In this document: in pieces, positions 11,541-61,608 of the stretch | Layout of the letters: each line of letters opens with the position of its first letter | Position numbering within the stretch: position 1 is the stretch's first letter | IMG/VR virus record: IMGVR_UViG_2693429668_000006 | Length of the DNA stretch: 64,000 bases | Reading direction: 5' to 3' (one strand) | Origin: a virus | Taxonomy: Duplodnaviria > Heunggongvirae > Uroviricota > Caudoviricetes | Translations under genes and position numbers: made by a program | The notes under the pieces: model-generated | What the model saw: the letters and a program-made list of their open reading frames with translations, nothing else | Databases searched by the model: none | Told to the model about the DNA's origin: nothing

Positions 11541-11616
11541 TGGTGCCGGTTAACGGACTTGAACCGCTGGCCATTTGCTTACAAAGCGACTGCTCTACCA
11601 ACTGAGCTAAACCGGC
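11541..11616 (-). tRNA. tRNA-Thr-like (anticodon UGU), possibly pseudo-tRNA
   Basis: 76 nt; acceptor GCCGGTT/AACCGGC, D-arm GCTCAGTTGGTAGAGC, T-arm GGTTCAAGTCC, CCA; anticodon loop TTTGTAA, but anticodon stem GTCGC/GCAAA has two mismatches. Confidence 0.5.
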
Positions 11617-11620
11617 AATT

Positions 11621-11707
11621 TGGTGGGGAGTGATGGAGTCGAACCACCCGAGTCGCAATGACAGTAGATTTACAGTCTACACCGCTACCTCTACGGACTA
11701 ACTCCCC
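11621..11707 (-). tRNA. tRNA-Tyr (anticodon GUA)
   Basis: 87 nt; acceptor GGGGAGT/ACTCCCC, anticodon stem-loop GTAGA-CTGTAAA-TCTAC, long variable arm, T-loop TTCGACT, encoded CCA. Confidence 0.8.
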
Positions 11708-11712
11708 TAAAT

Positions 11713-11787
11713 TGGCGATGGTGGGTGGATTCGAACCACCGATCAGTTGGTTAACAGCCAACTGCTCTACCGCTGAGCTACACCATC
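11713..11787 (-). tRNA. tRNA-Asn (anticodon GUU)
   Basis: 75 nt canonical cloverleaf: GATGGTG-TA-GCTC-AGCGGTA-GAGC-A-GTTGG-CTGTTAA-CCAAC-TGATC-GGTGG-TTCGAAT-CCACC-CACCATC-G-CCA. Confidence 0.85.
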
Positions 11788-20685: not shown

Positions 20686-21435
20686 TTAATTAGATAGGGG
20701 ATCAATAAACCGCCGTGCTTCTTCCAGTTCTTCTGGAAAGTGGGCGGAAATAAGGCGCTCTGGAACGATTTCCATTAGCCAGATAGCGGAGAAAATTGCG
20801 CGTATGCGCTTACTGCGAGGGATGGTGCGCAAACGCTCCAGAATCCACTCAAAATAGCTTTCCTGAATCGGGTTGAACTGCATGTCTCCCATATGCTTAA
20901 AGCTAACCAGAGAGTCATCCAGACGGGTTGTTGCGCGTCTGGCTAATTTCTCTTCAAATATCTCAATCAGTTCTGGCTGCCACAAATGCTGTGGGCGAGG
21001 CAGCTTGTCCCACAGACGTCGTGCAGCTGCGGAAAGAACAGTGGAGATAAAGTAGTCGTATGAGCAGCAATAGCGATCCGCAAACTGGCGTGCTTTCCAT
21101 AGCGACGTTTTATTAGCAGTCGACAACTCCTGATAAGGCAAGCGTTTTAACCCGGTGGTGAACGGAGCTGTTTCAAAGTGTTCACGACCGTGCGTCAGCA
21201 TGATATTTGAGTACTGACGTTTGTATGCCTCCGTAAACAGACAGGTGGCCATGAGAGGATGCATATCGCGGTAATCAAACCACTTCGTCTCAAACAGTTC
21301 AGCCTCGTCTTTGCAGCGCGACAAACCAATGTTTTCAGCAACCCACTTGTCCATAACAGCGGTATTCCACTCTGTCATGAAGTCGTACTGGTCGTTGTCG
21401 ATGGTATCGAAAAAGATTTGGCTCATGTGGCTCAC
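20686..21435 (-). CDS. hypothetical protein (249 aa)
   Basis: ORF track; promoter-like motif GGTAGGTAGTTACTTACTTATC immediately upstream. Confidence 0.5.
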   Translation of the reverse strand: MSHMSQIFFDTIDNDQYDFMTEWNTAVMDKWVAENIGLSRCKDEAELFETKWFDYRDMHPLMATCLFTEAYKRQYSNIMLTHGREHFETAPFTTGLKRLPYQELSTANKTSLWKARQFADRYCCSYDYFISTVLSAAARRLWDKLPRPQHLWQPELIEIFEEKLARRATTRLDDSLVSFKHMGDMQFNPIQESYFEWILERLRTIPRSKRIRAIFSAIWLMEIVPERLISAHFPEELEEARRFIDPLSN

Positions 21436-21540
21436 CTGGTAGGTAGTTACTTACTTATCACAATGAGCGGATGATAGCGACTGGTGGCAGTTTTTGGAAG
21501 TGGAAACGGAAGGGACTTGTTCTGGTGGGTGTCTTTAAAA

Positions 21541-21599
21541 GACCTGCTTCTGTATATACAAATAATAAGTAACTTATTAAATACATACGGAAGCAGGTC
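21541..21599. promoter_or_regulatory. 59-bp near-perfect palindrome (GACCTGCTTC ... AATAAGTAACTTATT ... GAAGCAGGTC)
   Basis: Outer arms GACCTGCTTC/GAAGCAGGTC and AT-rich palindromic core; near-identical inverted copy at 53656-53714. Confidence 0.55.
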
Positions 21600-21607: not shown

Positions 21608-23314
21608 TTAATGATTGAGTATTTTATTAACACGCAGCTTATTAAGTGTTGATTTTGAAGCAACTTCCTCCAAAGCTTCTATTGCTTTATCAGTGATGCT
21701 CTTCTGTTCGTCTGTCGGGTGTTGCATACCCTTGAACTTGAGCATAGTCTCTTCTACTAAATTCAAAGCATCCTGATCACAGGATAATATCCAGTTTACG
21801 TAATCATCTTTAGAAAAACTGTTAAGAATATTCACATCACTATGGTTAAATCTTCCACCAGCTATTTTTTTTATAATTTTATCTAAGTTATAGTCATCTG
21901 GATTTCTATCTTTCAATTTTTTTTCAATTCTGAAACCTAATTCTTCATTTCCGAAGATCTCTACTCGCAAAGAATTAAATGTAGCATACGCATTGTCTTT
22001 ATTAACAAAAGCATCTGCATATGCCTCTATAATATTATTACAATCTCTATCCAATTTGATTAGGACATTTATTAAACCTACGAACTGTCCAATTGGTATA
22101 CGCAACAGACTATCGTTAATTACGCGCTCAATTTGAAAAATAAACTCTGATTCATTATCTTTAAAAGAGTTTCTAAAAACATCCCAAATTTTATAAACCT
22201 CACATAAAACCCTATTATCTCTATATTGTTCATTTTTTTCTTTTATTATATTTAGAATATTGCTTTCAGAAGACACATAACCGTTCTTAAGGTAAAAATC
22301 TATATCATCATCGAAAGCACTTTCTGCTCGTTCATAAATAATATCAAGGCTATTAACAAATGAATATACAGAGTTAACTTCTTCCTTTTCATCTTTATCA
22401 TCTAACATATAGTCGAATGCATGTATATTTTTGATTGACTCCTTAAATGAAGCATAATCAACGCTAGGAACACCAAAATAGTAAACCACTGAAAATAAGA
22501 CCAATCTATTAATAAAACTTTCTCTAACCTTATCCTCTGCTAACTTTAGCACATCTCTAAATATAACTAGAGATGATTTTATTTTATTTAATATTCTAAT
22601 GTTTTTGATGTTTAAATCATTTGCTAGGTTTTTTAACAAAAGAAAATCAGGGTCAGTCTCATAAAAAACTTTTCTTAAGTTTTTCTCAGGCGTGGGATCG
22701 TATTTTATTTCCACATCAATTATTTTTTCTCTATACTCTAAAAACTGTTGTTGTGCAGTTTCTTCATGTAAGTTATCTTCATTTAATATTAGAACAACCT
22801 TGCAATTTTTTCTTCTTGCCAACTCATCAATTACCCCCATAATCTCTTTAATTTCTAGCGCACTACCTTTTCGTTCAATATCATCAATGCAAACCAAATA
22901 ATTATTAACAAATTTATACTCAAGAGATGACAGCAGATTATCAGTTTTGAACCCAAAAAAATCGTTCTTTCCAAAATGTATTAAAAATTTTGACAAGGAG
23001 TTGTATTTCAACCATCCCCAAAACCCATTTCTATAACGAATCATAGTTCGATCCGTTTCAGATAAAATCAGTTCTTTATATTTCTTTTCATTAATTGGTG
23101 TGGCACAATGATAAAGAGCTTTTTTAATGTCTCCAATAGAATTTATTCCAAACAAAGAAACATATGAATATGCATTAAAATCTAATTTTTTAGAATGTTT
23201 AGTATAAAAGCTATTCCAATAATGCGTTTTACCTACTCCCCAATTTCCTTTTATGACAGCAACCCGATGATCTGAGTCCAAAAAATTTTTTAAAAATACT
23301 TCTATCGATTCCAT
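21608..23314 (-). CDS. KAP-family P-loop NTPase
   Basis: 568 aa; KAP-type Walker A VIKGNWGVGKTHYW and Walker B-like LVCIDDIERKG (compare GxWGxGKS and IDDLDR of KAP NTPases); gene body strongly AT-rich. Confidence 0.7.
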   Translation of the reverse strand: MESIEVFLKNFLDSDHRVAVIKGNWGVGKTHYWNSFYTKHSKKLDFNAYSYVSLFGINSIGDIKKALYHCATPINEKKYKELILSETDRTMIRYRNGFWGWLKYNSLSKFLIHFGKNDFFGFKTDNLLSSLEYKFVNNYLVCIDDIERKGSALEIKEIMGVIDELARRKNCKVVLILNEDNLHEETAQQQFLEYREKIIDVEIKYDPTPEKNLRKVFYETDPDFLLLKNLANDLNIKNIRILNKIKSSLVIFRDVLKLAEDKVRESFINRLVLFSVVYYFGVPSVDYASFKESIKNIHAFDYMLDDKDEKEEVNSVYSFVNSLDIIYERAESAFDDDIDFYLKNGYVSSESNILNIIKEKNEQYRDNRVLCEVYKIWDVFRNSFKDNESEFIFQIERVINDSLLRIPIGQFVGLINVLIKLDRDCNNIIEAYADAFVNKDNAYATFNSLRVEIFGNEELGFRIEKKLKDRNPDDYNLDKIIKKIAGGRFNHSDVNILNSFSKDDYVNWILSCDQDALNLVEETMLKFKGMQHPTDEQKSITDKAIEALEEVASKSTLNKLRVNKILNH

Positions 23315-23338
23315 TGGTGTCTATCCTTCAACTCATAT

Positions 23339-23361
23339 ATTGGGCGTAACAAACGCCCAAT
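23339..23361. terminator. hairpin ATTGGGCGT-aacaa-ACGCCCAAT between parG-like gene and KAP NTPase gene
   Basis: Perfect 9-bp stem located 5 nt downstream of the ParG-like stop. Confidence 0.45.
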
Positions 23362-23365
23362 ATAA

Positions 23366-23725
23366 TCACCCTTTCTTCATCAACTCGCGTTTAATTTCAT
23401 CGGTACGCATCGTGACATCGGCAGCTGTGATCGCCTCGTTAAGTTTCACGATGTCCTCGATTTCCTGCGGTGTCTTCTCCGCAAGATGGAAAATAGCAGC
23501 ACGAATCACGTCAGAACGAGTGAACTTCTCGAAGCGAGGGATGAACTTCATCATCTCCAGCAGTTCGAAGTATTCGTCCTCCAGTGACATTGTGCGGCTT
23601 TTAATTTTCTCTTTGCCACGAGTCGGGCGTCCCTGTGGTCTGACTGGTTGGCGCAAAGGAGTTGTGTTCTTAGCCGGTGCATCAGGCTCTTTGCGCTTTG
23701 CTAGGTCACCCATTTTCATGGACAT
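23366..23725 (-). CDS. parG: ParG-like centromere-binding protein (putative ribbon-helix-helix)
   Basis: 119 aa; basic flexible N-terminus then short helical C-terminus; stop/start coupled to ParA gene, as in ParF/ParG type Ib systems. Confidence 0.55.
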   Translation of the reverse strand: MSMKMGDLAKRKEPDAPAKNTTPLRQPVRPQGRPTRGKEKIKSRTMSLEDEYFELLEMMKFIPRFEKFTRSDVIRAAIFHLAEKTPQEIEDIVKLNEAITAADVTMRTDEIKRELMKKG

Positions 23726-24393
23726 TATTCTTCTTCCTCCAGACTCAACAGATAATCTACAAATTCTTCAAACTCGGCTTCCGCCTTTTTGTCGCGCTCG
23801 CTACCGGTCATTTCAAAGATAGAACGACCAGACTCTTCCGCATCATCATAGACGTTGCGGTTATATAGATTGACTGGCGCAGACTCGATGCCAAACGTCT
23901 CAACAATCTCTTTAGCCGCCAGAATGCGAGACACTTGTGATGGCAAAGCCGGGCACTGGTTCATGACCGCGCGGACCTTCACTTTATCGTTTACATTACG
24001 AACATTGTCGATAATAGGATCGATGTCACGCAGAGATTTCAAATCACGACGCTTAGGACGAAGCGGGATAATGATAACGTCGGCCATCAGCATCGCTTGT
24101 CGCTGAATTTCGGAGTCAAAGCCACCAGCATCTACCACTACAAACTCAGCTCTACCCTGAAGCGATTTTAGGTGCTTAATGATGTCATCCTGAACGTATG
24201 CAAAAGGAATCAGCTCAAGGTCTTCGTTCTGTCGACGGTCTTCACACCAGCTTGTTGTCGTGCGCTGAATATCTATATCAGTGATATAAACCTTCTTCTT
24301 CTTTTTGACTTTCAGGCAAACGGCAATTTGCTGGGCAACGGTGGATTTGCCAGGCCCGCCCTTTGTGCCGCCAACCACAAAGATCTTGGTCAT
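23725..24393 (-). CDS. parA: ParA/ParF-type partition ATPase (small type Ib)
   Basis: 222 aa; deviant Walker A GGTKGGPGKST at N-terminus. Confidence 0.8.
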   Translation of the reverse strand: MTKIFVVGGTKGGPGKSTVAQQIAVCLKVKKKKKVYITDIDIQRTTTSWCEDRRQNEDLELIPFAYVQDDIIKHLKSLQGRAEFVVVDAGGFDSEIQRQAMLMADVIIIPLRPKRRDLKSLRDIDPIIDNVRNVNDKVKVRAVMNQCPALPSQVSRILAAKEIVETFGIESAPVNLYNRNVYDDAEESGRSIFEMTGSERDKKAEAEFEEFVDYLLSLEEEE

Positions 24394-27164: not shown

Positions 27165-30100
27165 TCAGTTACTTGTTGCCCCAACAGTACCTGCAAATTT
27201 CAGCCATTGACCTGACGGACTTCTATTACTACGGTAGTGATAAACGAGGATTGCGTTTGTAATCCCACCATAGTCAGCTTTGTGTGACGTCGTTAAACGA
27301 ATTGTATAATCACCGTTAGGTAGATTAAAAACTTCGATTATAGATTCTGCTAATTCTACAGCACCAAATCCCGTTATATTGTTGATACTGCCAGCATTGA
27401 ATCCCATAGCATCGCCAAAGCCAATCCAATAACTTTTGCTAAACGCCCCATTTGATTTTAGGTGGCTAATGAATGCGGACAAGCTCATGCCCATATCCCC
27501 ACCTGAAACAGAGGAAGTTCGCACAGTCATACTTGGAAGAGCACTGCTCTTCACATAGGAACTTAGAAGGTTTGTTACCTCTGTTTTCGTGTAAGCATTA
27601 AGGTTAGCCGCAGTCAAAGTTATATCGGCAGAGCCATCAAACGCCACACCAGCAATTTTCCTTGCTGTCTGCAATTTTGTGGCGGTTGCGGCATTACCAG
27701 TAGTGTTCTGGTTCCCATCTGCATTCACACCTGGAATGCTGTCTTTTTTAGTATATATCTGAGTCCAGTCCTCTTCGAACCCATAGCCATCACGTGATGA
27801 ACGGTAATACAATCCACCATTTTTATAATGCGCTCGGATTTGGAGAGTCCGACAACTACCTACGCCTATATAAAAATTTGCAACGATATAAGAATCCCCG
27901 GAGCGTGTAACATTATACGCACCTGATTCGGCATTCCACGGGACCGCACCACTAGCATCGGCATAAGTTCCAGTAGCGCGTCGAGCAAAAGCAGATACAT
28001 TTGCAGCTGTTAGTGTTATATCAGCAGAACCATCAAAAGACACGCCGCTTATTTTTCTAGCAGTTTGCAACTTCGTAGCTGTTGAAGCATTACCGTTCAA
28101 ACTACCATTTACGCCACCAGTAACATTTAGTCCATTACCAATGGACACAGCACCGCTGGTATTATTAATTGTAATAGGTCGCAAACCGTTCCATGAACCT
28201 AATGTGTCTCCTGATGCTGTTAGCATGAAATATGTGTTCGATCCATCATTACGGATAAAGAACCCAAAGCTACCGTAAGCAATGCGGAAACCATTTGCAT
28301 ATTTTGAAACGATCTCACCAGAAGACGTTAATCCGCCAGTTAACGCTCCTCCAGATAGTGGTAAAGCTCCGACATCAGCCGCAGTAGGCTTGTTTTTAGT
28401 GTTATACGCTCTGCGCCATCCTGGTGAATAGCTCGTCCCGTTAAATACATAGATAAACTCCGCATTAGTGAGAGCACCAGAGACACTCGCCGTTGTGGCC
28501 GTTGTTATACGGATCGTATAATTGTTTGAGCTACTACCGTTATTAAATACCTCTATAACAGCTCCTGCTAATGGAATAACGCCACAACCAGTTTCACTAT
28601 TTGGTATGGTTGCACTATTGGCATAGGCCCACGCACATCGAGCAATCCATGACTTTGTGTTAAATGCTCCATTATTTTGCAATAACGTCACTAACTGTGC
28701 TGTTGTTATTGCTCCGCCATTACTTCCTGTAGTTAACCAACCAGTAGGAGATGCCGGGCAACCTATATTTGCTGGCGACAAGGAAATATTTGCCGAGCCG
28801 TCAAACGACACCCCATTGATAGTACGCGCAGTCTGCAACTTCGTAGCAGTAGCCGCGTTGCCCGTTGTATTCTGATTACCAGTCGTATTAACACCTGGCA
28901 AATTAATATTCGCAGTACCATCAAAGCTCACGCCGCCGATAGTTCTTGCCGTCTGAAGTTTTGTAGCAGTTGCAGCATTACCAGTGGTGTTCTGATTACC
29001 CGTAGTGTTTACACCTGGAAGGTTAATATTTGCAGAACCGTCGAAAACAACTCCACCGATAGATCTTGCCGTCTGCAATTTCGTGGCTGTACTTGCATTA
29101 CCATTCAATGAACCAGTTAATCCACCTGTAACAGACAACGGACCTGAAACTGTTCCTCCGGTTGTTGGCAGTGCTCCAATATCTGATGGTGTAGGTTTCT
29201 GATGTGAGCTATACATCGTATAAACAACACCATCGGTAACGCTGGAAGGCTTACTCGCTGAATATGTTGGCGAGGTATAAATAGAAACTGTCGCATTTGC
29301 AGTACAATCCCAATGGATATTTACACGAGTCGCATAATTGCCAATCTCAACGTAAATATCATATGTATCGCCGGATGTGTTGATCCAGGCGAAATTCGTT
29401 AATCCGACAGCTGTACGCTTCCACAAAGCACCTGTAATCCCTTTGGGGTTTCCATTGCCTGCTCGTAGAACCAGTTCTGAAATGCCTGCCTGATGTGGGG
29501 AGCCGACGTTGTAACCAGCGCCACCAATCAATGCGATGTAAACGATGGAACTCGCTTGTGGCATGGTAACCGTAGCCAGTTTGAACCACCCTGCCCCGCC
29601 AGAGAAAGACATCGTTACTGAATTTAAAGTACCAATATCTTTCGGCGTTAATGTGATATCCGCAGTCAGTGCTTTACCGTTAACTTTTCGGTTAGATGGC
29701 ACCCTGCTATTCGCATTGTCATTGGCTGCTTTAACTGCTTTTGGCGTTGCGGCCAGCGATTCACTGGTGCTGTCGACAGCACTGCTAAGTTTCACAACAC
29801 CTTTAGTTGTAAGGCTTGCGTCTTCCATCGCAACTGCACCGGCAATCTCTTCAGCACGATCAGCAGCAGCTTCCGCACGGGTCGCAGCGGATTCAGCAGC
29901 AGTTTTGCTCTGAGATGCTGCCGTCGCACTGCCTGCCGCCTCTGTTGCTTTCGTGGATGCCGTCGTGGCACTGCCCTTCGCTGCTGACGCCTGTCTGGTC
30001 GCCTCATCTTTTGAAGCAGACGCAGATGATGCCGATGACGCCGCCGAACTGGCGGACGATGCGGCAGCCGTTTTTGAGGATTCTGCGCTGGTTTCCGACG

Positions 30101-31283: not shown

Positions 31284-34200
31284 TCACAGACGGCCAATTC
31301 TTACTCGTAGGACGTTGTTATCGTCATAAACGTCAATCCGCTGACCATTTATAACCAATCTCCCATTGCCGCCGCTATTACCGTTGATCTCAAGCGTTCC
31401 ATTTTTGCCGAACCGCCATCCAGATCTACCGCTAACAAAATTGGTAGATTGCAGATCGCCTACTTTTGCATTGGTGATTGTGCCATCCTTGATATACGCT
31501 CCATTCATATAGGCGATACTGTTTTCGATAACAAATGGCGTTGTGATCTTCCCGTTAACAGAGTTGACCAAACCAAACCTGTCCGCCTGAACCAAAAACT
31601 GAGATAGCCCAGTGGTGTCAATACCAAGCGCAATACCGGCAACATACTTCTGCCCTCCGCTCGTTGAAGTCTCCATTTTCAACGTCCACGCGGTTGATAC
31701 TTTTTTGTTGGTATCAGCAATAGCTGTTGCCTGCTGTTGAATTGTCGCGGTATTTCCATCCACCTCTGCTTTCAGAGTATCGATTCGCCCACTCAGAGCA
31801 TTATCTGCCTGCGTTCTCGCTGTCGTTTCAGTTGTGACCGCCGCAGAAATGTTGGCTGCTGTTTGAGACTCTAAGTTTGTGATTTGAGTCGCCAATGCAG
31901 CATCTTGCTCTGTACGCGTTTTCGTTTCGGTTGCTACAGCCGCTTTAATATCCTCTTTGTATTGAGAGGTCAGCTTGGTGATCTGAGACGACAACGCCGA
32001 GTCAGCATCAGTTCGAGCCTGCGTTTCAACTGCAACGGCCGCACTAATATCTTTCGCTGTCTGTGCTTTTAAACTTGAAACCTCTTTTGTTAAAGCGGTA
32101 TCACCATCTGCACGAGCCGTTGTTTCTCTGGCAAGAGACGCCTCGAGATCATTAGCTTTTGCTGTAAGAGACGTAATCTGGGTAGACAATGCACTATCGG
32201 CATCAGTCCTTGCTTTTGTCTCTACAGCAACCGCTGCGGCAATATCAGTTCCGGTTTGTGCTCGCAGGCTGTTAATTTCTCGTGAGAGCGCCTGGTCAGC
32301 ACTTGCTCTGGCCTCCTGCTCCTGAGTGATGGCCGCGGATATATCACCGTCAACCTTTGACTGAAGCTGGTTTATTTGTTTGGCTAACGCAGAGTCCCCG
32401 CTTGCTCGGGCCTCCTGCTCACTACGTATTGCAGCAGAAATATCATCATCAACCTTTGCCTGAAGTTGGGTGATCTGGCTTGCCAGAGCCGAATCTTCCG
32501 TTGCTCGGGCTTCTTGCTCTTCCTTAATGGCTGCGACGATATCGTTGCTTACTTTCGACTCAAGCTGAGTGATCTGTGTCGTCAGAGCTTCATCGGCAGA
32601 TGTACGAGCCTCCTGCTCTGTACTAATCGCCGCGCTGATATCTCCTTCAAACTTAGATTGCAGCTGAGTGACACGCTTTGCCAACGCTTCATCGCCATCG
32701 GCACGAGCGGTGGACTCTTCCAGAATACTGGCCTTAATGTCTTCGCCAATTTCTACGCGAATTTCCTCAACCTTCGTGGCCATTGCAGACATATCATCAG
32801 CAAAGGTTTTCTGTGTTGTTGCGATCTTCGCGTTATTGACCATCTGCTTGTGCTGGTCTTCATCTTGACGAAGAGCCAGGTCAATATTTGTTTTGGCTAA
32901 CGCCTCAATGTTCGTAGTCAGTTCTGCACTGGCACGATCGACCTCTGCAACCGTCTTTTTCATTTCTTCAACGGCAGCGGAGCTTTCCTCTACCGTTGAC
33001 TGCAACACTTCCAGTTGTTTAGCGTTTGCAGCATCGCCTTCAACACGAGCCTCGCTTTCCTTAGCAATAAGAGCCGCCGCTTCATCTCTTGCAGCCTTTA
33101 TTGCCTCGACTGTATTAGCGAGAGCTTTATCGTGTTCAGATACGGTGTTTTCGATTTCAACAATTGCAGCATCAGTAGCATCAATTTTTTCAAACGCTTC
33201 ATTGACCTTGTCGATCGTTGCCGAAACCTCACCTTTAAGCTCGGTTTGTGCGTTCTCCAAAGCATCGCTACGCTCGTTGAATTTTATTTCAAAATCCGCG
33301 AGGTTATCGCTGAACTGCTTATCTAATTCAGCTATATCTTCCTTAACGTCGTTTACCGCCCCCTCCAAAGATTCGACGCTCTGGTTGATATGCTCATTTA
33401 ACTCGTCAACTGCTTCTTGAGAGGCTTTGCTGTTGATGTCCTCAAGCAGAGCCTGACCAAGCTCGGAAGATGTAATTTTGCCAGTCAGGAACGACAGTAC
33501 ATCGCGAGTTGTCGCCTCTGTACCCAAGTTTGAGTTCGGAGGACTTAACATACCTCGCTTGTTCGATGCTCGAACCCAGTAATACCACGTTTCGCTATCC
33601 CCAAGACCAGCATGTGTAAAGGTGGTGCTTGCAGACTCTGCGATCAGTTTCGCCGTATCCAGATTGTTGGTCTGGGATGCGTAAACATTAATGTGATCAA
33701 GGTCTACCGAATCTGGATTAACCCAATTCAGTATCACATTACGATAGTCTCCAACGGCCGTTAATGACGTTGGGGCATCCGGCGGTGTCATTGTGCCCAA
33801 CACCTGATAAACGGTACTGATAATCTCTGTTTTTTTACCGTTGAATGAAACCGCATACAGCTGGAAGTCGTAGCGTCCATTCTCCGCGACATTAACGATT
33901 TCGTATTGCTCTTCGGTTACACGCGCCGATTGCCAGTTCGATACATTGTTTTCATCAGAACGTCGCCAACTGATCCAATACTCTGGAGATTTCCCTTCCC
34001 ATGTTGCAGTCAGTTTTACTGACAGGTTGCCCGGGCTTGAGAGATAAGTCCCTTCAGTGATTTGCAGATTAGATGGCTTGGAGTAAGTTGGGTCCAATAC
34101 CGTCGTATTCTGCGGGATCAGCGTTGCACCATTGTCGATTGCCTCATATTTAGACGGATTGTTCTCAACAGCGGTGATGTCAAAGCTACCCGGCGTTTCC

Positions 34201-51653: not shown

Positions 51654-52910
51654 CTATCGAGAACCACCAAGAATAACACGGTTTTTGACTGGATACCTAC
51701 GATGTACTGGATAGCCCAATGCGTCTGCACTATGCTCAATGCCACCTGTCTTATCCATATCTCGTGTTCCAGGCTTGTAGATGACTTTTTCCAGTGAATC
51801 AATCAAATGCTTGCACTTCGGATCGATATACAGCCGGATATCTCCAGATGCGGTCATCAGCATTCGGTTAACAGCATTAACACGATCCGCAATTGGCGGG
51901 TGCTTTTTCGAATAATCGACACGTAAGAATCCCTTCTCTTTGAATATGTCGACGTCAGACTCCCCGCGAGCATGTTGGCGATAAGCACCTGCCGGATCTG
52001 GAAATACCGTTATCTGTGATTTCCAGCGCCAGAAGCGTCTCTCAAGCTCATCACAAACCTCTGCCGTGTTAGAGGAAAAGAGCACCAATTCATCAATTGC
52101 CCATAGCTCACCATTTGGCTGAGGTTGCAAAATTACTGAAGACATCGGGTCAATGTTGAAGTCCTGCCCTACCCATATAGGCAACCGAGGGTTGAACTGA
52201 AGCGGTTTTACATGCACGTTACGATCGAACGGGTAGTAAACGCGCCCGGACATGTTCTCAAAGCTCGCCAGGTACTCCTGAGCGAACGATTTCGGGTCCA
52301 TATCGTTCTTAGCAGCTTCAATTTCCGCCGTAGGTACAAACGGAGAATCGGCAGTTACAAACTGCCAGCTCTTCCACTGTCCCTTTCTTTGCAGCTCTAC
52401 GTTCTGGCCTATAGTCCACAGTTTGTGAAATTCCGAGAAGCCTTTTGGCGTACCAATGATCAGTGCACCGCCGCGTGTCGATGAAAGAGTAGGTCGTAAC
52501 ACCTTGTACCAGGTGTCAGCCTTCATATCCTGAAATTCATCAAGCACTACAAAATGCAACGCTACGCCGCGCAGAGTGTCAGGCTTATCAGCACCTTTGA
52601 GGGCGATCTCCGAACCGTTCTTCAACACGATTGTCATCGTGGTGTCGTTCTTTTTCCTAACCCACTTACGAGGCAGAACTTCCTGTAGATCGTCCCACAA
52701 AATCTGGCGAGCCATCTGGTAAGTAGGAGCGACATACCAGACTCTTTGCTTTTTTTCCTTTGCCGCCGCACGAATAATAGTGGAGATCGACAACCGGGAT
52801 TTTCCCCAGCGTCGACCAGCACAAACAACTTTAAATCGATGCGGAGACTGGAAGACTTTCATCTGTCCAGAATGCAGTTGCACAAGACTGAGCGAGGACG
52901 GGATTGCCAT
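51654..52910 (-). CDS. terminase large subunit
   Basis: 418 aa; N-terminal Walker A VVCAGRRWGKS, Walker B-like LHFVVLDEFQD, C-terminal nuclease region. Confidence 0.85.
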   Translation of the reverse strand: MAIPSSLSLVQLHSGQMKVFQSPHRFKVVCAGRRWGKSRLSISTIIRAAAKEKKQRVWYVAPTYQMARQILWDDLQEVLPRKWVRKKNDTTMTIVLKNGSEIALKGADKPDTLRGVALHFVVLDEFQDMKADTWYKVLRPTLSSTRGGALIIGTPKGFSEFHKLWTIGQNVELQRKGQWKSWQFVTADSPFVPTAEIEAAKNDMDPKSFAQEYLASFENMSGRVYYPFDRNVHVKPLQFNPRLPIWVGQDFNIDPMSSVILQPQPNGELWAIDELVLFSSNTAEVCDELERRFWRWKSQITVFPDPAGAYRQHARGESDVDIFKEKGFLRVDYSKKHPPIADRVNAVNRMLMTASGDIRLYIDPKCKHLIDSLEKVIYKPGTRDMDKTGGIEHSADALGYPVHRRYPVKNRVILGGSR

Positions 52911-53542
52911 TATTCGTCCTCCCCTTCACTTCCATCATCTGTCGCATCAAATTCGCTTAGAGCTTCTTCTTCCAACGTCTCAAGCAATTCGTCATCGATG
53001 ATTTCAGGCTCGTCGTCTTCCTGACGTAATTTCGCCACCTGGGAAGGCGTAAGCTCACCAAATACCAGGTTCGGAATTTCTTCCTCGTCATTTTCCGCAT
53101 GATCCATGCCCAATGCTTTGGACGAAACTTCAAAGCATTTTGCAAGGGTATTACTGGCTCTCTGTAAGCTCTTGAGAGAATCCTCAATCGCCCCTAAAGG
53201 CTTACCCTCACGTTTGGCCGTAGTGACTTCGACCATCACCATCTGCCCCAACGCATACGCCCAGCCGTCATAACGTGTACGACGTTCTTCTATCTTTTCC
53301 GCACGGGCTTTAGCGCGAAGCTCTGCGTCAGATTTAAGAGACTCACGAACCATCTTCCCAACAGAGTCCGCGCCTTTCTCTAATCCTCGCTTTTTGAAAT
53401 GTCTGGAGAGTGTTTCACGACGAATGCCGTACTCTTCCTCCAGCTTTGAGAGTGTATATTCGCCTGACGTCCATTTGGCTTCAGCTTCGGCCCACTCCGC
53501 TGGTGTCAGGCGAGTTTTTACCTCGTCTTTTTCGACCGTCAT
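52910..53542 (-). CDS. terminase small subunit candidate
   Basis: 210 aa; HTH-like N-terminal segment, highly acidic C-terminal tail; 1-nt overlap with large subunit start. Confidence 0.55.
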   Translation of the reverse strand: MTVEKDEVKTRLTPAEWAEAEAKWTSGEYTLSKLEEEYGIRRETLSRHFKKRGLEKGADSVGKMVRESLKSDAELRAKARAEKIEERRTRYDGWAYALGQMVMVEVTTAKREGKPLGAIEDSLKSLQRASNTLAKCFEVSSKALGMDHAENDEEEIPNLVFGELTPSQVAKLRQEDDEPEIIDDELLETLEEEALSEFDATDDGSEGEDE

Positions 53543-53655
53543 AGATCCCTCTAAAACACACAGAGCGCGTCCATGCGCTCTAAAACAACTTGTTTACTGC
53601 ATCTGCTAACCAACTTGTTTTCTGGGGTGTTTAATTAGGTCTGGCATGTCTTACG

Positions 53656-53714
53656 AAGCCTGCTTCCGTATATATTTAATAAGTTACTTATTATTTATAT
53701 ATACAGATGCAGGT
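53656..53714. promoter_or_regulatory. 59-bp near-perfect palindrome, inverted near-identical copy of 21541-21599
   Basis: GCCTGCTTCCGTATATATTTAATAAGTTACTTATTATTTATATATACAGATGCAGGTC; about 55/59 identical to reverse complement of 21541-21599. Confidence 0.55.
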
Positions 53715-53737
53715 CTTTAAATAAGCTCCCAGACCGA

Positions 53738-54004
53738 TTACATCACCAGTAACTTCGCTTTGGCTCGACCTAAAGTGGTTAACCCAAGAGTCCGGCGGTG
53801 ATAGCGATTGTCACTGCGTTGGCGCGTATGCCCTTTCTCCACCAGCCCCTTTTTTATCAGAGCGCGAATTGAGAACTGGATACTTTGCTTGGTTGTCTTG
53901 TACGGCAAAACTTCAAGCAATTCGTCCAGGTCAAGTAGATGACCTCGCTCATAACCGAGATTGAGCGTTTTGATGATGTCCTTTTGTTTGTCGGTTAACG
54001 TCAT
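53738..54004 (-). CDS. small basic putative DNA-binding protein (winged-helix-like)
   Basis: 88 aa; last gene of the ParB/ABC operon, 10-nt gap from upstream gene. Confidence 0.4.
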   Translation of the reverse strand: MTLTDKQKDIIKTLNLGYERGHLLDLDELLEVLPYKTTKQSIQFSIRALIKKGLVEKGHTRQRSDNRYHRRTLGLTTLGRAKAKLLVM

Positions 54005-54013: not shown

Positions 54014-54904
54014 TTATGCCGGTAAAGCAATTTCTAACGGTTTATCCAAAGGTTGTTTGTCGAATGCCAGCAGTGGCAGCGTGTCAGGCAGTCGACGGCC
54101 AAAGTCAGGGTTTCGGTACACACCATACAACGGAGACGTAAAGCTCAGGTTGTGAATGTCCTTGAGCAGCTTCACAATGCTGGCCTCGTCCACCAGACTG
54201 TCGGCAATGTCCTGAATCGTCGTGCCACGATTCCGCCCAGCTTTTGCCAGGGAACTGTTCTTATGGTAGTCCGCCACCAAATCGCGCAGCGCACGGCGAC
54301 GACGAGACTCGCTCATAGCGAACAACTCTTTGACGATCGCCTCGTTATCACCCGGGTCGGAGCGGAAATGGCGCTGGAACACACGCAGTGCACTTTCATA
54401 GCTCTTCGGTCGCTCAGGGCGGATGAACTTAAACCCTGCTTTCATGGCGAAGGGATTGTATTTGCTCATCGAGGACTGGATCTCAATGATTGGCCGGTCA
54501 TGCATCCTGCTAACCAGGTTAATCATTCTATAAGAGACGCCTACGCCACGATACTGAGTATCCACAACTGAGCGACTGATCACCGCAAAGTTGTTATTCA
54601 CGTACCGACCCCAGTACTGGTTAGCCACGGTGGTATTAGTGGTTGGTTTCAACTTAGGAAACATGCGGTGGCGAGGTGCCAACAGTAGTTTCGGGTAAGC
54701 CATAACCACGACGCCCACCAGACGGTCATCAAGTTCGCAGCGATAGTAAGTTGGCGCGAAAGGTTTGCCGTCTGTTTTGTAGTGAAGCGACTTAAGAGCG
54801 TGCCAGTCCTCTACAGTTCCCTTTGTAACAGTCATTCGCTCCAGAAAGTCCAGATGACGCGGAAACTCTTCAGGGCGGTAGCGTTTAATGATGATGTCCG
54901 TCAT
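54014..54904 (-). CDS. GNAT-like acetyltransferase-fold protein with C-terminal extension
   Basis: 296 aa; GNAT motif A-like VVDTQYRGVGVSYRMINLV and terminal strand AMKAGFKFIR; ATGA-coupled to ABC ATPase gene. Confidence 0.5.
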   Translation of the reverse strand: MTDIIIKRYRPEEFPRHLDFLERMTVTKGTVEDWHALKSLHYKTDGKPFAPTYYRCELDDRLVGVVVMAYPKLLLAPRHRMFPKLKPTTNTTVANQYWGRYVNNNFAVISRSVVDTQYRGVGVSYRMINLVSRMHDRPIIEIQSSMSKYNPFAMKAGFKFIRPERPKSYESALRVFQRHFRSDPGDNEAIVKELFAMSESRRRRALRDLVADYHKNSSLAKAGRNRGTTIQDIADSLVDEASIVKLLKDIHNLSFTSPLYGVYRNPDFGRRLPDTLPLLAFDKQPLDKPLEIALPA

Positions 54905-55566
54905 GAATGGACCTCATCATGACTACCATTGTGATATTCCACCTTCACGCGTTCTTTGTAGTGCTTGGTGATCTGCATATCAGGGCGCAGCGCGTTCTTC
55001 AGGTCTTCGTGAGTCGTCGCCACCATTACCGTCGCACCAACCTTTCGAGCGGCACGCTGGAGGTTAGACGCCACAACCTGAGCGGTTACACGGTCGAGAA
55101 CAGCGCCGAACTCGTCAGCAGCCCATACTTTAGCGCCTGACTCAATCAGTTTGGCAATCTTGAGACGATATTTCTGGCCGTCTGACATTTCAGAAGGCTT
55201 GCGAACAAACAGATATGCATCGTTCAGACCAGCCATAGATAACAACCCAAGCGCATCACTGGTCGTTTTGCCCAACTGATCGATGACGTTAACCTCATTA
55301 TCGAAGGTAAAATCATCGATGGAGGCTACAGACAGCCCTTCATCCTTCATCTGTCGTTGCAACTCGCGCAGCACAACGGATTTGCCGGAACCGGATTGGC
55401 CGGTGATGTACACCACATCGCCCTGCTTCACTTCCAGCTCCAGATTGTCGTAAAGCGTCCACTCTTTTTCGTCCAGGCCAAGCCCGAACGACTCAGCGAT
55501 TTCCAACGTGCGCGTGGTTTTATTTACGCGTGTCTGAAACGATACGTTGATGATGTATTTGCTCAT
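54901..55566 (-). CDS. stand-alone ABC-type ATPase (nucleotide-binding domain only)
   Basis: 221 aa; Walker A GQSGSGKS, signature-like MSDGQKYRLKIA, Walker B VWAADEFGAVLD, H-loop TTHE; no permease gene adjacent. Confidence 0.75.
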   Translation of the reverse strand: MSKYIINVSFQTRVNKTTRTLEIAESFGLGLDEKEWTLYDNLELEVKQGDVVYITGQSGSGKSVVLRELQRQMKDEGLSVASIDDFTFDNEVNVIDQLGKTTSDALGLLSMAGLNDAYLFVRKPSEMSDGQKYRLKIAKLIESGAKVWAADEFGAVLDRVTAQVVASNLQRAARKVGATVMVATTHEDLKNALRPDMQITKHYKERVKVEYHNGSHDEVHS

Positions 55567-56264
55567 GCAGCCATCTCCCCGGAAGAGATCTTCTCCGCAT
55601 ATGCCACAAATGCGTCTACCCCGCTTTCTCCCGTCATTTCTTCCATATGGGCAAGCAAATCACCAACAACAATGGCAGAGCCAGCAGGGAGCGTTTTAAA
55701 GCCCAATACGTCGACAACACGTACTTCTTCCGCTGCAACTTCACGACTGATCTCGGTGTGTTCATCCTTCTGTCGTTTAGTTTCTTCGCCAAGATCGATA
55801 ACTAGCGAGTCGGTGTCCATTTCTTCTGTCATACTGCCAACGAGAACATTCAACTCACGCTCTTCAAAGCCGAAAACCTCGATATCGTCCAGAACAAGCG
55901 ACTCAAGCTCTTTCTGTAGCTTAATTGCATCGTAATCAATGCTGGCAAGTCGGTTATCTTCAAGGCGCTTCGCACGAACCTCGTCATCACTGAGATCATC
56001 GCGAACAATAACCGGTACGCGCTCAAGTCCAGCAAAAATTGCAGCCTCACGGCGGCCGTGGCCAGTAATAATTACGTCGTTCTTATCGACCGTAATTGGC
56101 TGGTCAAATCCGCGCTTTTTAATGGCTGCGGCTAGATCTCGGATCTGCTGTTCATCATGCTTTTTGGCATTCATCTCATAGGGAATAAGATCTGCCGGGT
56201 CGCGATATACGATTTCAAACTTTTTGGTCATTACATACGCTCCTTGTAGTAGTCGACCAGCCAC
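55563..56264 (-). CDS. ParB-like nuclease-domain protein (ParB/Srx fold)
   Basis: 233 aa; ParB N-domain motif IITGHGRREAA; acidic C-terminal half. Confidence 0.7.
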   Translation of the reverse strand: MAGRLLQGAYVMTKKFEIVYRDPADLIPYEMNAKKHDEQQIRDLAAAIKKRGFDQPITVDKNDVIITGHGRREAAIFAGLERVPVIVRDDLSDDEVRAKRLEDNRLASIDYDAIKLQKELESLVLDDIEVFGFEERELNVLVGSMTEEMDTDSLVIDLGEETKRQKDEHTEISREVAAEEVRVVDVLGFKTLPAGSAIVVGDLLAHMEEMTGESGVDAFVAYAEKISSGEMAA

Positions 56265-56929
56265 ACCAGAGCCTCACCAGCGTTCTCCATTTCATTACCG
56301 GTGTTAATAGCCTGCTCTTTGATGATGTTTTTTATGGTTTCTGCAACACGATCTGACGCATCGAAAGTTACTTTGAAGCGCATGGTCTGATGTTCCGCAC
56401 CCACACGTTCGGTTTTCTCTCGTTTGTCGGTATCGACAGGCTCATCACTACCACGAGACAACGCCTCCAGTGCTTCAAGGTCGATTGCCGCCTCTTTTGC
56501 TAAAACCATCGAGATTTCGTCGTCATACGGAGCGATTTCAGACAGTTGATAGTCAAGTTCTGACTGAATTTCTTCAATGAAGCGTTGCAATGCGATTTGG
56601 TCGTCTTCACCGTATCGCTCGTTGTCCACCAGTGACATCTGTTTAGCTACGACATCGCTAATTTTGCCCACAGAAAGCACCGGAACCGTTGAAATTCCTT
56701 GCTCAATAGCAGCACGCCAGCGATGTTCGCCGCCGAGGATTTCAAAAAATCCATCTTCAAGTTCACGAGCCAAAATTGGCTTAAAAAAGCCCAATTTTTC
56801 GATAGAACCTTTCAGTTTTTCAAAATTCTGCGCACCAACCGAATTGGTGTTCCAGGTATTCGGGCGAAGGTTGGCAACATCAACCTGCAAAATCGTGATT
56901 TTTACATCCATTTTATTGCTACAATCCAC
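56231..56929 (-). CDS. ParB-like nuclease-domain protein (second paralog)
   Basis: 232 aa; ParB N-domain motif ILGGEHRWRAA; overlaps downstream paralog by 34 nt. Confidence 0.7.
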   Translation of the reverse strand: MDCSNKMDVKITILQVDVANLRPNTWNTNSVGAQNFEKLKGSIEKLGFFKPILARELEDGFFEILGGEHRWRAAIEQGISTVPVLSVGKISDVVAKQMSLVDNERYGEDDQIALQRFIEEIQSELDYQLSEIAPYDDEISMVLAKEAAIDLEALEALSRGSDEPVDTDKREKTERVGAEHQTMRFKVTFDASDRVAETIKNIIKEQAINTGNEMENAGEALVWLVDYYKERM

Positions 56930-56993
56930 TAAGTAATCACTTACTTATTATAATAGCCAAATAACATACAAAAGGCACTAAGGAAAGAGGTTT

Positions 56994-61100: not shown

Positions 61101-61148
61101 TTAATGGAATCAAGCGCCCACTATGGGCGCTTTAAAGGAGCTTTGAAA

Positions 61149-61372: not shown

Positions 61373-61603
61373 ATGTTTGTTCTTATCGCTGGCGTTAACG
61401 TCCATAACGAATATTATGTTAATCGCATCGCTGGGATCGCTGGTTACGCTGGGCGCGCAGTCGAGTTTATCGATGAAACAACGCGTAAAATTGATTTATT
61501 GAGCGACCAGGAGCGAAAAAAAGCAGACGTGAACGACGCTGATATATTTTTAATGTTAAAAGCGTTTGTAGAAATGGGATTTAAAATCAGTTTACACAAA
61601 TAA
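61373..61603 (+). CDS. hypothetical protein (76 aa)
   Basis: ORF track; SD AAGGAG upstream; followed by two tandem terminators. Confidence 0.45.
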   Translation: MFVLIAGVNVHNEYYVNRIAGIAGYAGRAVEFIDETTRKIDLLSDQERKKADVNDADIFLMLKAFVEMGFKISLHK

Positions 61604-61608
61604 AATCG

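What the first reader, a model, noticed from the sequence alone, without database searches (positions are those of the whole stretch)
21541..21599. Two near-identical 59-bp palindromes in inverted orientation bracket a ~32-kb block
21541-21599 and 53656-53714 are each near-perfect palindromes (arms GACCTGCTTC/GAAGCAGGTC around an AT-rich AATAAGTAACTTATT core) and are about 55/59 identical to each other's reverse complement. Between them lie the KAP NTPase, partition, toxin-antitoxin, lysis and the whole morphogenesis block. Elements this long and this conserved could be bidirectional terminators or operators, recombination sites, or packaging/replication signals.
Basis: seen in the sequence. 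Interest (0 to 1): 0.6.

Follow-up and report, generated by a model that had tools for sequence, protein, structure and literature searches.

The report
Repeated boundary hairpins in a phage-plasmid
The two 59-bp palindromes are real, but they are two of three copies of a conserved hairpin element that marks the borders between the three big gene blocks of SSU5-like phage-plasmids, most likely as transcription stops, and they are not a switch that flips the 32-kb block.

Summary
A (21541-21599) and B (best register 53657-53715) are quasi-palindromes, 54/59 identical as reverse complements, and they are the only such pair in the window.

The "inverted pair bracketing a block" reading does not hold:
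- The window is an SSU5-like phage-plasmid. A third copy (C) lies outside the window, next to a DNA methylase gene.
- More than 120 copies in IMG/VR all map to the same three orthologous positions.
- In most relatives A and B are direct copies, several identical 55/55. Only this lineage has A's interior flipped.
- 38 of 38 relatives that carry both flanking genes keep the same gene order, so there is no sign of inversion.

The arms and core are more conserved than the neighbouring coding sequence. In Moellerella, all three sites carry a different arm sequence that is specific to that lineage, and interior lengths range from 25 to about 100 nt. So the arms act as a stem, and the three sites evolve in concert.

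A and C are followed by a T-run in the direction of transcription, as in an intrinsic terminator. B is not. B sits 134 bp upstream of terS, and the linear SSU5 GenBank record begins and ends inside it, so B could be a cos site.

Best reading, at confidence 0.45: these are module-boundary transcription-punctuation hairpins kept alike by gene conversion. Function is untested, and I found no published description.

The parts
21541..21599 (-). Palindrome A. It has a 10-bp GC-containing outer stem (GACCTGCTTC/GAAGCAGGTC), an AT-rich inner stem and a 7+7 core (AATAAGT-A-ACTTATT). It starts 8 nt after the stop of the KAP NTPase gene.
   Evidence: The same sequence is in the 99.8% identical plasmid NZ_CP031136.1. 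The interior is flipped relative to the usual A site of relatives.
53657..53715 (-). Palindrome B. Its arms are imperfect (AGCCTGCTTCC / GATGCAGGTC) and its core is AATAAGT-T-ACTTATT. It lies about 22 nt after the stop of an 88-aa gene, and its nearest edge is 114 nt (its dyad centre about 143 nt) upstream of the terS start. The linear SSU5 GenBank record is broken at the position equivalent to 53677|53676.
21533..21540 (-). T-run directly 3' of hairpin A in the sense direction (TTTTAAAG). At least 4 T in 8 nt in 47 of 51 distinct A sites of relatives.
21519..21525 (.). Outer flanking motif GTTCTGG (CCAGAAC in gene sense), 15 nt outside palindrome A. It is one half of an outer inverted motif (GTCTGGGAG ... 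CTCCCAGAC) seen at all three sites. The other half at A has been lost on the variable side.
53638..53644 (.). Outer flanking motif GGTCTGG, to the left of palindrome B.
53726..53735 (.). Outer flanking motif CTCCCAGACC, to the right of palindrome B. It is the inverted partner of 53638-53644.
21471..21499 (-). Conserved sigma-70-like promoter candidate downstream of A (TTCCAA - 17 nt - TATCAT). It would serve the phrog_2500 / DnaB / primase operon.
   Evidence: Read from the sequence. The block is conserved across relatives. The consensus scanner did not flag it, so this is inference only.
20686..21435 (-). First gene downstream of A (249 aa, phrog_2500, function unknown). DnaB-like helicase and primase follow it.
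21608..23314 (-). KAP-family P-loop NTPase gene ending 8 nt before A. It lies in the variable region: homology with most relatives stops at the edge of the palindrome.
53738..54004 (-). 88-aa gene (phrog_900, annotated in some records as DNA-binding) ending about 22 nt before B. A small gene holds this position even in distant relatives.
52910..53542 (-). terS (phrog_867), the first gene of the morphogenesis block downstream of B. TerL follows at 51654-52910.
53561..53582 (-). Conserved GC hairpin plus T-run (terminator-like) between B and the terS ribosome-binding site.
53579..53623 (.). Two copies of the AAACAAnTTGKTT motif between B and terS. The motif also occurs at other operon starts.

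Best explanation
A and B are two of three paralogous hairpin elements (A, B, C) that sit at fixed intergenic positions in all SSU5-like phage-plasmids. Together they divide the co-directionally transcribed genome into three blocks: B to A holds packaging, head, tail, lysis and plasmid maintenance; A to C holds replication and nucleotide metabolism; C to B holds cargo, plasmid replication and early genes. I propose that they act as transcriptional punctuation. When RNA polymerase crosses an element, the two GC-containing arms pair into the base of a long stem-loop. At A and C a U-run follows directly, so transcription from the upstream block ends there (intrinsic termination). This keeps genes expressed in the plasmid state, such as par and the KAP NTPase, from reading into the lytic replication and late operons. 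A stem this long would also be an RNase III substrate and a 3'-end stabiliser. The three copies are kept alike by gene conversion between them, which also explains why the interior of A has flipped in this lineage. Shown here: the copy number, positions, conservation, stem potential, U-runs at A and C, concerted evolution of the arms, and absence of inversions. Inferred, not shown: that termination or processing actually occurs, and that gene conversion rather than a co-evolving binding factor keeps the copies alike.
For: - Position: each copy lies between co-directional genes, just after a stop codon. A is 8 nt after the KAP NTPase stop, B about 22 nt after the 88-aa gene, and C (in SSU5) 28 nt after the methyltransferase stop.
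- Stem potential: about -26 to -28 kcal/mol in the sense strand, z = -7 to -8.
- T-run directly 3' of the stem in the sense direction: at least 4 T in 8 nt in 47/51 distinct A sites and 23/27 C sites.
- Candidate promoters or leaders follow downstream.
- The arms behave as a stem rather than as fixed-spacing duplex half-sites. Interior length varies from 52-57 nt overall in Enterobacteriaceae to about 80-130 nt in Moellerella while arm complementarity is kept. In more distant relatives the B position carries a palindrome of the same build with quite different arms.
- In Aeromonas the A and B positions carry ordinary GC hairpins followed by T-runs, so a hairpin at these boundaries is the conserved feature.
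- Gene conversion is plausible. A equals B 55/55 in several E. coli lineages, A and B share lineage-specific changes, and all three Moellerella sites share a new arm sequence.
- The three sites coincide with the module borders.
Against: - B has no T-run after the stem in the sense direction in 38/39 distinct B sites. The B-position palindromes of Moellerella and of the distant relatives L372 and L373 lack one too. So B is not a canonical intrinsic terminator, yet it is as conserved as A.
- Arms and AT core are more conserved (majority fraction 0.94-0.99) than the adjoining coding sequence (0.905) and far more than the adjoining spacers (0.53-0.81). Substitutions in the arms are often uncompensated. 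That points to sequence-specific recognition, which a plain terminator does not need.
- There is no clear bias towards G-U over A-C mismatches in the sense strand (19 versus 14 variant classes), and sense versus antisense stability is inconsistent among the three sites.
- The consensus terminator scanner did not flag either element because of the long, bulged stem.
- I examined no transcript data.
Confidence: 0.45

Rival explanations
1. The elements are recognition sites for a sequence-specific factor encoded by the phage-plasmid. The factor would bind the conserved stem or arms (as RNA hairpin, DNA cruciform or looped duplex) together with the dyad core TAAGT-N-ACTTA. It would control whether transcription passes from one block to the next, either as an antitermination site like lambda nut or HK022 put, or as a repressor roadblock like mycobacteriophage stoperators. 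The three sites stay alike because they must fit one protein.
For: - Arms and core are more conserved than neighbouring coding DNA.
- All arms at all three sites change together between lineages (E. coli CCTGCTTCCGTATA versus Moellerella CTAGCTCCCATAGTA).
- B is followed about 75 nt later by a conserved GC hairpin plus T-run just before terS. That is the layout expected for an antitermination site upstream of a terminator.
- Core-like perfect palindromes (ATATTAGTAAGTGCTTACTAATAT) recur at 5 or more sites in an Acinetobacter relative, without GC arms. Core-like motifs also sit at the A and B positions in Aeromonas. This pattern looks like an operator.
- A small gene, annotated as DNA-binding in some records, always lies directly upstream of B.
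Against: No binding protein has been identified. The arms occur nowhere else as single half-sites. The spacing between arms is not fixed, which argues against a simple dimer on duplex DNA. Gene conversion alone could produce the concerted change. C lacks the TAAGT-N-ACTTA core in this plasmid.
Confidence: 0.2
2. B is the cos (or pac) site, where terminase cuts concatemers to make virion DNA ends. Its dyad symmetry would reflect a symmetric staggered cut in the AT-rich core. A and C would be related copies that are not used as ends, or that are skipped because the head is not yet full.
For: - B lies 134 bp upstream of terS-terL, the usual place for cos.
- The linear GenBank record of virion-derived phage SSU5 starts and ends inside B. 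The break is 9-10 nt from the dyad centre, and the joined ends rebuild exactly the palindrome found in plasmids. An arbitrary break would fall in this 55-59 nt with probability of about 0.0006.
- A palindrome of the same build sits at this position in distant relatives and lacks a terminator T-run.
- The B flank carries repeated short motifs that could be TerS binding sites.
Against: - SSU5 itself carries A and C with the same arms, yet its genome is one 103-kb molecule.
- The Cyrano record is merely pLF82 re-annotated, and its start, 1 nt from SSU5's, may simply follow SSU5's, so I do not count it as independent evidence.
- No other virion-derived relative in the phage collection starts at B.
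- The break could be an assembly break at a repeated hairpin.
- The nearest TerL relatives (25-41% identity) include phages I recall as terminal-repeat or headful packagers; this is from my own knowledge, not a tool result, and gives no support for cos.
- I found no paper on SSU5 termini.
- The AACAAnTTGTT motifs are not specific to the B flank.
Confidence: 0.15
3. The palindromes are DNA-level replication or recombination signals. They would be lytic origins (an AT-rich unwinding core between inverted arms, as in herpes simplex virus oriS) or programmed hairpin breakage sites. In the second case the element's own Mre11/Rad50-like nuclease would cut them to start recombination-dependent replication, making them recombination hot spots.
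For: - The phage-plasmid encodes its own DnaB, primase, Pol III alpha, ligase, RecA-like and SbcCD-like proteins.
- A lies directly upstream of the helicase-primase operon.
- Homology with relatives breaks exactly at the edge of A, and 10 or more different junction types lie on its upstream side.
- There are traces of recombination at the elements: the flipped interior, identical A and B copies, and TA-repeat slippage.
Against: There is no initiator, no iterons and no DnaA boxes at the sites, and GC skew shows no turn at either copy. Breakpoints at a conserved island next to a variable region are expected whatever the island does. 59-bp quasi-palindromes are shorter than those I recall being attacked by SbcCD in vivo (my own knowledge, not tested). 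B and C have conserved flanks on both sides.
Confidence: 0.08
4. A and B are crossover sites of a site-specific recombinase that inverts (or excises) the 32-kb block between them.
For: In this window the two copies are in inverted relative orientation. A tyrosine recombinase gene exists elsewhere in the plasmid.
Against: 38/38 relatives keep the same relative orientation of terS and the phrog_2500 gene. In most relatives A and B are direct copies. A third copy exists. No recombinase gene is adjacent. The architecture (17-nt arms with a 25-nt or longer variable spacer) does not fit known core sites of tyrosine or serine recombinases (my own knowledge). Inverting the block would turn the late operon against all other transcription.
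Confidence: 0.02
5. The three copies are dispersed partition (centromere) sites bound by the plasmid's ParB- or ParG-like protein, as in phage N15.
For: There are three copies spread around a low-copy plasmid prophage. The elements have dyad symmetry. The par locus lies 2 kb from A.
Against: The region next to A that holds par is variable among relatives, while the palindromes stay the same. The interior length is variable. The palindrome upstream of parA is the unrelated AACAACTTGTT motif. I ran no direct test.
Confidence: 0.03

Closest known systems
Rho-independent (intrinsic) transcription terminators, including long or bidirectional ones at phage module borders
   Same: The element is a stable stem-loop placed a few nucleotides after a stop codon, between co-directional operons. 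A and C are followed by a U-run. An ordinary GC hairpin plus T-run occupies the same positions in Aeromonas.
   Different: The stem is very long (about 25-28 pairs with an AT-rich interior). The same 17-nt arm sequence is kept at three sites and across genera. B has no U-run. The loop and core sequence is conserved.
RNase III processing hairpins of phage T7 early mRNA (R0.3, R0.5, R1 and others)
   Same: There are several similar, irregular hairpins of 50-60 nt between genes of long polycistronic units, conserved in position among relatives. The stem is long enough to be a substrate. The comparison rests on my own knowledge of T7.
   Different: No cleavage data exist. There are only three copies, and each is at a block border rather than between most genes. 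The arms change in concert between lineages, although the host enzyme does not.
Lambda nut sites and HK022 put sites (cis-acting antitermination RNA hairpins present in two copies per genome)
   Same: A few copies per genome have the same hairpin sequence, which is lineage-specific, and lie upstream of terminators. B is followed by a conserved terminator-like hairpin.
   Different: nut and put sites lie just downstream of early promoters. Here the elements lie at the ends of upstream blocks, and A and C look like terminators themselves. No N-like or Q-like protein has been identified.
Cohesive end sites (cos) of lambda-like and HK97-like phages
   Same: B lies just upstream of terS-terL, has dyad symmetry with an AT-rich centre, and coincides with the ends of the SSU5 record.
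   Different: There are three copies per genome. No end mapping exists. The flanking repeats are not specific to B.
Small hairpin-associated inversions in chloroplast intergenic regions
   Same: The interior of a stem-loop downstream of a gene is found in either orientation in close relatives while the flanks stay unchanged, exactly as for A in this lineage against its relatives. The comparison rests on my own knowledge.
   Different: The genetic system is different, and here the flipped unit is itself quasi-palindromic.
Dispersed regulatory or structural sites of plasmid prophages: P1 C1 operators, N15 dispersed centromeres, mycobacteriophage stoperators and ESAS inverted repeats
   Same: A short conserved sequence is repeated at a few intergenic sites around a temperate phage genome and is tied to control of lytic blocks.
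   Different: Those sites are 13-17 bp duplex protein-binding sites. Here the element is a 55-130 nt stem-loop with variable interior length.

Membership tests
Intrinsic terminator | Stable stem-loop immediately downstream of a gene, on the transcribed strand | tested here: met
   A: -28.3 kcal/mol, z = -8.2, starting 8 nt after the stop codon. B: -26.3 kcal/mol, z = -7.2, about 22 nt after the stop codon.
Intrinsic terminator | U-rich tract directly 3' of the stem in the direction of transcription | tested here: inconclusive
   Met at A (47/51 distinct sites have at least 4 T in 8 nt) and at C (23/27). Not met at B (38/39 have 2 T or fewer).
Intrinsic terminator | Transcript 3' ends map to the site | not testable with these tools
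   No transcript data were available.
cos site | Virion DNA ends map to the site | tested here: inconclusive
   The SSU5 linear record is broken inside B. How that end was chosen is unknown, Cyrano is not independent evidence, and no other virion record starts there.
cos site | Adjacent to the terminase genes | tested here: met
   B is 134 bp upstream of terS, which is followed by TerL. A and C are not adjacent to terminase genes.
cos site | Single functional copy per unit genome | tested here: not met
   There are three copies with the same arms in this plasmid and in SSU5. A also shares B's core.
Invertible segment bounded by recombinase crossover sites | Both orientations of the segment occur among or within strains | tested here: not met
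   38/38 contigs show the same relative orientation of terS and the phrog_2500 gene.
Invertible segment bounded by recombinase crossover sites | The sites are in inverted orientation as a conserved feature, with a recombinase gene next to one of them | tested here: not met
   A and B are direct copies in most relatives. Neighbouring genes are the KAP NTPase, phrog_2500, an 88-aa protein and terS.
Protelomerase target (telRL of N15-like linear plasmid prophages) | Single palindrome of about 50-56 bp, a protelomerase gene, and a linear plasmid with hairpin ends | tested here: not met
   There are three copies. Related records are circular plasmids. No protelomerase is annotated in the plasmid regions examined.
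REP/ERIC/MITE-like mobile intergenic palindromes | Many copies at non-orthologous sites, with presence or absence varying between strains | tested here: not met
   There are only three copies. All 120 IMG/VR copies map to the same three orthologous positions.
RNase III processing site | Double-stranded RNA stem of about 20 bp or more within a polycistronic transcript | tested here: met
   The predicted stem has 25-28 pairs with small bulges. Whether it is transcribed and cut is not testable here.
Dispersed centromere (N15-type) | Sites co-vary with, and are bound by, the plasmid's partition protein | not tested
   Only indirect evidence is available: the par-containing region next to A is variable while the palindromes are constant.

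The most novel reading that the evidence does not exclude
The three elements form a co-evolving three-site system. A hairpin (or cruciform) with a lineage-specific stem sequence and a dyad core would be read by one phage-plasmid-encoded factor. That factor would gate passage between the plasmid-state, replication and late gene blocks, and at B it might double as the packaging start. This would be a genome-wide switch for the plasmid-to-phage transition that has not been described for any phage-plasmid.
Probability: 0.25. Interest if true: 0.65.

Novelty: new variant of a known kind. Interest (0 to 1): 0.38.

Why it matters
SSU5-like phage-plasmids are common in E. coli, Klebsiella, Salmonella, Enterobacter and Yersinia pestis (pMT1). 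They carry resistance and defence genes. How they keep about 80 kb of lytic genes silent while plasmid genes on the same strand are expressed is not known. Three conserved hairpins placed exactly at the block borders are obvious candidates for that insulation.

One of them borders the hot spot where cargo such as the KAP NTPase is swapped. Another may mark the virion DNA end. Knowing their role would help in three ways: annotating these elements, predicting which variants are still active phages, and engineering them.

If they turn out to be plain terminators, the practical value is smaller. They would still be a reliable landmark for module borders, and a caution that 55-60 nt repeats break short-read assemblies at these points.

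Tried and rejected
- Inversion of the A-B block: rejected, 38/38 relatives are collinear.
- 'Inverted orientation' as a design feature: rejected. A and B are direct copies in most relatives, and the window's A is a lineage-specific flip.
- Known RNA family: an Rfam scan of the whole window found only three tRNAs.
- RNA-strand signal: G-U versus A-C mismatch classes (19 versus 14) and sense versus antisense folding energies gave no consistent answer.
- Packaging type from TerL: the Pfam match is Terminase_6N/6C. The nearest phage relatives are 25-41% identical and of mixed or unknown packaging type, so this was not informative.
- Literature on SSU5 or Cyrano termini, cos or palindromes: seven full-text searches and several look-ups found nothing. 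The SSU5 genome announcement and the Gilcrease and Casjens plasmid-prophage paper are not held. The Cyrano paper shows that record is pLF82 re-annotated.
- Contig ends in IMG/VR as a proxy for virion ends: none of the whole-contig loci I inspected ends inside a palindrome, and breaks near repeats are expected anyway.
- Shared-arm families in more distant relatives: the Acinetobacter and Aeromonas plasmids have none. They have AT-rich perfect palindromes or ordinary terminators instead.
- Half-sites elsewhere in the plasmid: none found.
- The first single-arm scan of IMG/VR was mostly chance hits and was replaced by a two-arm pattern.
- Protein structure prediction for the 88-aa and phrog_2500 proteins was considered and not run, because it could not link either protein to the sites.

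Full report
**What the window is.** The window is part of an SSU5-like phage-plasmid. It is 100% identical over the tested stretches to 'uncultured bacterium' plasmid pTIC (MF554642.1) and 99.8% identical to E. coli plasmid pGMI17-003_2. It is related to Salmonella phage SSU5, E. coli phage Cyrano (pLF82), Klebsiella phage-plasmids and Yersinia pestis plasmids (which I take to be pMT1). Nearly all genes run on the minus strand.

**The observation.**
- Site A (21541-21599) is exactly as described.
- Site B is best placed at 53657-53715 and has less perfect outer arms.
- A against the reverse complement of B is 54/59. The direct comparison gives 35/59.
- The repeat finder extends the pair to 63 nt at 94%, by far the longest inverted pair in the window.
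- The arm pattern occurs only at the four arms of A and B, against 0.22 matches expected by chance.
- Both sites fold far better than shuffled sequence, as RNA and as DNA (z = -5 to -9).

Two caveats apply. Each site is a bulged quasi-palindrome rather than a near-perfect one. B's register is one base off the stated coordinates.

**There are three copies, not two.** I rebuilt the rest of the plasmid from MF554642.1 and searched it. A third copy, C, lies between a small gene and a DNA methylase gene, at about MF554642.1 14810-14868. It has the same arms (AGCCTGCTTCYGTATAT) but a different AT-rich core. Phage SSU5 also has all three: A at 33458-33513, C at 78304-78360, and B split across the ends of the record.

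A two-arm pattern scan of IMG/VR returned at least 120 palindromes. Every one maps to the A, B or C position (46, 46 and 28). The element is therefore neither a generic repeat nor a mobile one. It is a three-member family at fixed, orthologous sites.

In the direction of transcription the three sites cut the circle into three blocks:
- B to A: terS, TerL, head, tail, lysis, par and variable cargo (32 kb).
- A to C: phrog_2500, DnaB, primase, ligase, Pol III alpha, recombination and nucleotide-metabolism genes, and the methylase (about 49 kb).
- C to B: cargo, plasmid replication and early genes (about 31 kb).

**Orientation and inversion.** I sampled A and B sites without bias by fetching the DNA upstream of terS and of the phrog_2500 gene in relatives. 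Read in gene sense, most relatives have A and B as direct copies, and in several E. coli lineages they are identical 55/55.

The window's A is the reverse complement of the usual A plus two substitutions, with unchanged flanks. The same flipped A is in the 99.8% identical plasmid. So the 'inverted orientation' is a lineage-specific flip of the hairpin interior, of the kind known for stem-loops bounded by inverted arms. It is not a design feature.

Among 38 contigs that carry both marker genes, all 38 keep the same relative gene orientation. Nothing suggests that the 32-kb block inverts.

**Anatomy and conservation.** The unit has four parts:
- an outer inverted motif (GTCTGGGAG ... CTCCCAGAC) lying 10-19 nt outside the arms;
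- 17-nt arms (CCTGCTTCYGTATATAT);
- a TA-rich inner stem that varies by TA slippage, giving 52-57 nt overall;
- in A and B, a 7+7 core (AATAAGT-N-ACTTATT) whose central base is free.

In the alignment of 46 distinct B regions, the majority-base fractions are 0.945 and 0.987 for the arms and 0.941 for the core. The neighbouring coding sequence scores 0.905 and the adjoining spacers 0.53-0.81. Substitutions in the arms are often uncompensated.

**Evidence from more distant relatives.**
- Moellerella wisconsensis pW1-b (TerL 80.6% identical) has palindromes at the same three positions, with different arms shared among its own sites (GCCTAGCTCCCATAGTATTTATA). Its elements span about 80-130 nt overall.
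- Two metagenomic relatives (TerL 63-70% identical) carry, at the B position, palindromes of the same build with yet other arms.
- An Aeromonas relative has ordinary GC hairpins followed by T-runs at the A and B positions.
- An Acinetobacter relative has no GC-armed family. Instead it has five or more copies of an AT-rich perfect palindrome that resembles the E. coli core.

Two conclusions follow. First, because complementarity is kept while spacing varies several-fold, the arms work as a stem, not as fixed-distance duplex half-sites. Second, the three sites of one genome evolve in concert, through gene conversion, a shared binding factor, or both.

**What they do.** A begins 8 nt after the KAP NTPase stop. 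In the sense direction it is followed by TTTT, a T-run present in 47/51 distinct A sites, and C has one in 23/27. Downstream of A lie a conserved promoter-like block and leader for the helicase-primase operon. A and C therefore have the full anatomy of intrinsic terminators, placed where the upstream block should stop.

B does not: 38/39 distinct B sites lack a T-run in the sense direction, as do the B-position palindromes of Moellerella and of the two metagenomic relatives. Between B and terS lie two AACAAnTTGTT motifs and a very conserved GC hairpin plus T-run just before the terS ribosome-binding site.

I commit to transcription punctuation and insulation at module borders as the best single explanation, at confidence 0.45. 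In this view A and C are terminators, the long stem is a likely RNase III substrate, and the copies are homogenised by gene conversion. The conservation of sequence, not only of pairing, and the behaviour of B keep a factor-recognised hairpin (an antitermination or roadblock site) as the main rival (0.2).

**The packaging lead.** The linear GenBank record of phage SSU5, sequenced from virions, begins and ends inside B. The break lies 9-10 nt from the dyad centre, and the joined ends recreate exactly the palindrome found in plasmids. With B lying 134 bp upstream of terS, this is what a cos site would look like. A symmetric cut would give an overhang of about 17-19 nt, which is inference only.

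Several points count against it. The Cyrano record, which starts one base away, is pLF82 re-annotated and may simply follow SSU5's start, so it is not independent. No other virion-derived relative starts there. SSU5 also carries A and C. An assembler could break at a repeated hairpin. TerL relatives are too distant to predict the packaging mode. I found no paper that maps the ends. I give cos at B a confidence of 0.15. It is compatible with A and C being terminators.

**Module border and cargo hot spot.** Homology with most relatives stops at the edge of A on the KAP NTPase side. At least ten junction types occur there. In five relatives the parG-like gene abuts the palindrome, so the KAP NTPase gene is an insertion between par and A. 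This fits a conserved element beside a swap-prone region. It does not by itself show that the palindrome promotes recombination.

**Novelty and verdict.** I found no description of these elements in the searchable literature. They are best classed as a new variant of a known kind: terminator-like intergenic hairpins, unusual in being a three-copy, concertedly evolving family at module borders, one copy of which may mark the genome end. Interest is moderate at 0.38. The structure is solid and widespread in clinically common phage-plasmids, but the function is inferred, and the most likely answer is fairly ordinary.

Noticed in passing
window 6110, 20663, 24430, 53579, 53604, 62725, 63210 (12 exact copies in the whole plasmid): An 11-mer palindrome, AACAAnTTGTT, recurs. 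In gene sense it is often part of a roughly 28-nt conserved block, TAATTAA-N8-10-AGAAAACAAnTTG. It lies just upstream of DnaB, parA, terS and other gene starts. It may be a phage-specific promoter or operator. An Acinetobacter relative annotates its own sigma-70 family sigma factor.
   Followed up: partly
window 21446-21459 and about 20 other places in the plasmid (e.g. 8650, 12547, 38162, 50131, 51647): The motif ATAAGTAAGTA has stop codons in all three frames and occurs mostly in gene sense. It sits in the conserved leader upstream of the phrog_2500 gene. Related dyads (AGTAAGTGCTTACT, AAGTAATTACTT) recur in the Acinetobacter and Aeromonas relatives and resemble the core of palindromes A and B.
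   Followed up: partly
window 53561-53582 (-): A GC hairpin (GAGCGCATGGACGCGCTC) plus T-run lies directly before the terS ribosome-binding site. It is very conserved (0.96 majority fraction). It looks like a regulated terminator in the leader of the late operon.
   Followed up: partly
window 21608-23314 (and the low-GC stretch 22001-24000): The KAP-family NTPase gene sits in a 35% GC stretch and is missing from most relatives. In five relatives the parG-like gene abuts palindrome A, so this gene is inserted cargo at a hot spot with 10 or more alternative junctions.
   Followed up: partly
window 11544-11787 (-): There is a cluster of three tRNA genes.
   Followed up: no
window 62877-62904 / 63348-63375 and 61103-61133 / 61599-61629: Two pairs of near-identical GC-rich terminator-like hairpins lie about 470-500 nt apart (TTAAGGCCACCAGCATTGGTGGCCTTAA and GAGCGCCCACTATGGGCGCTTT). 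This suggests duplicated small gene cassettes.
   Followed up: no
window 32271-32666 and 27604-29103: A 99-nt unit is repeated four times in tandem, and diverged repeats with 120- and 396-nt spacings are also present, probably inside tail or tail-fibre genes (not checked against the ORFs).
   Followed up: no
window 1-20500 versus MF554642.1: The otherwise identical plasmid pTIC has 1324 bp more than the window somewhere in this stretch, probably an insertion sequence. The window is therefore not exactly that record.
   Followed up: no
window 54014-57000 (-) and L003, L005, L376, L378, L382: A conserved operon upstream of B encodes two ParB/Srx-like nuclease-domain proteins, an ABC-type ATPase, a protein of about 296 aa and a small 88-aa protein. 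It is kept from E. coli to Acinetobacter and Aeromonas, and its function is unknown.
   Followed up: no
L379 about 14215 (NZ_CP093257.1 about 64215): The Moellerella plasmid has a lone fourth copy of its arm sequence (AAGCCTAGCTCCCATAGTATTTATATA). It lies inside another palindrome, between a hypothetical gene and an AAA ATPase gene.
   Followed up: no
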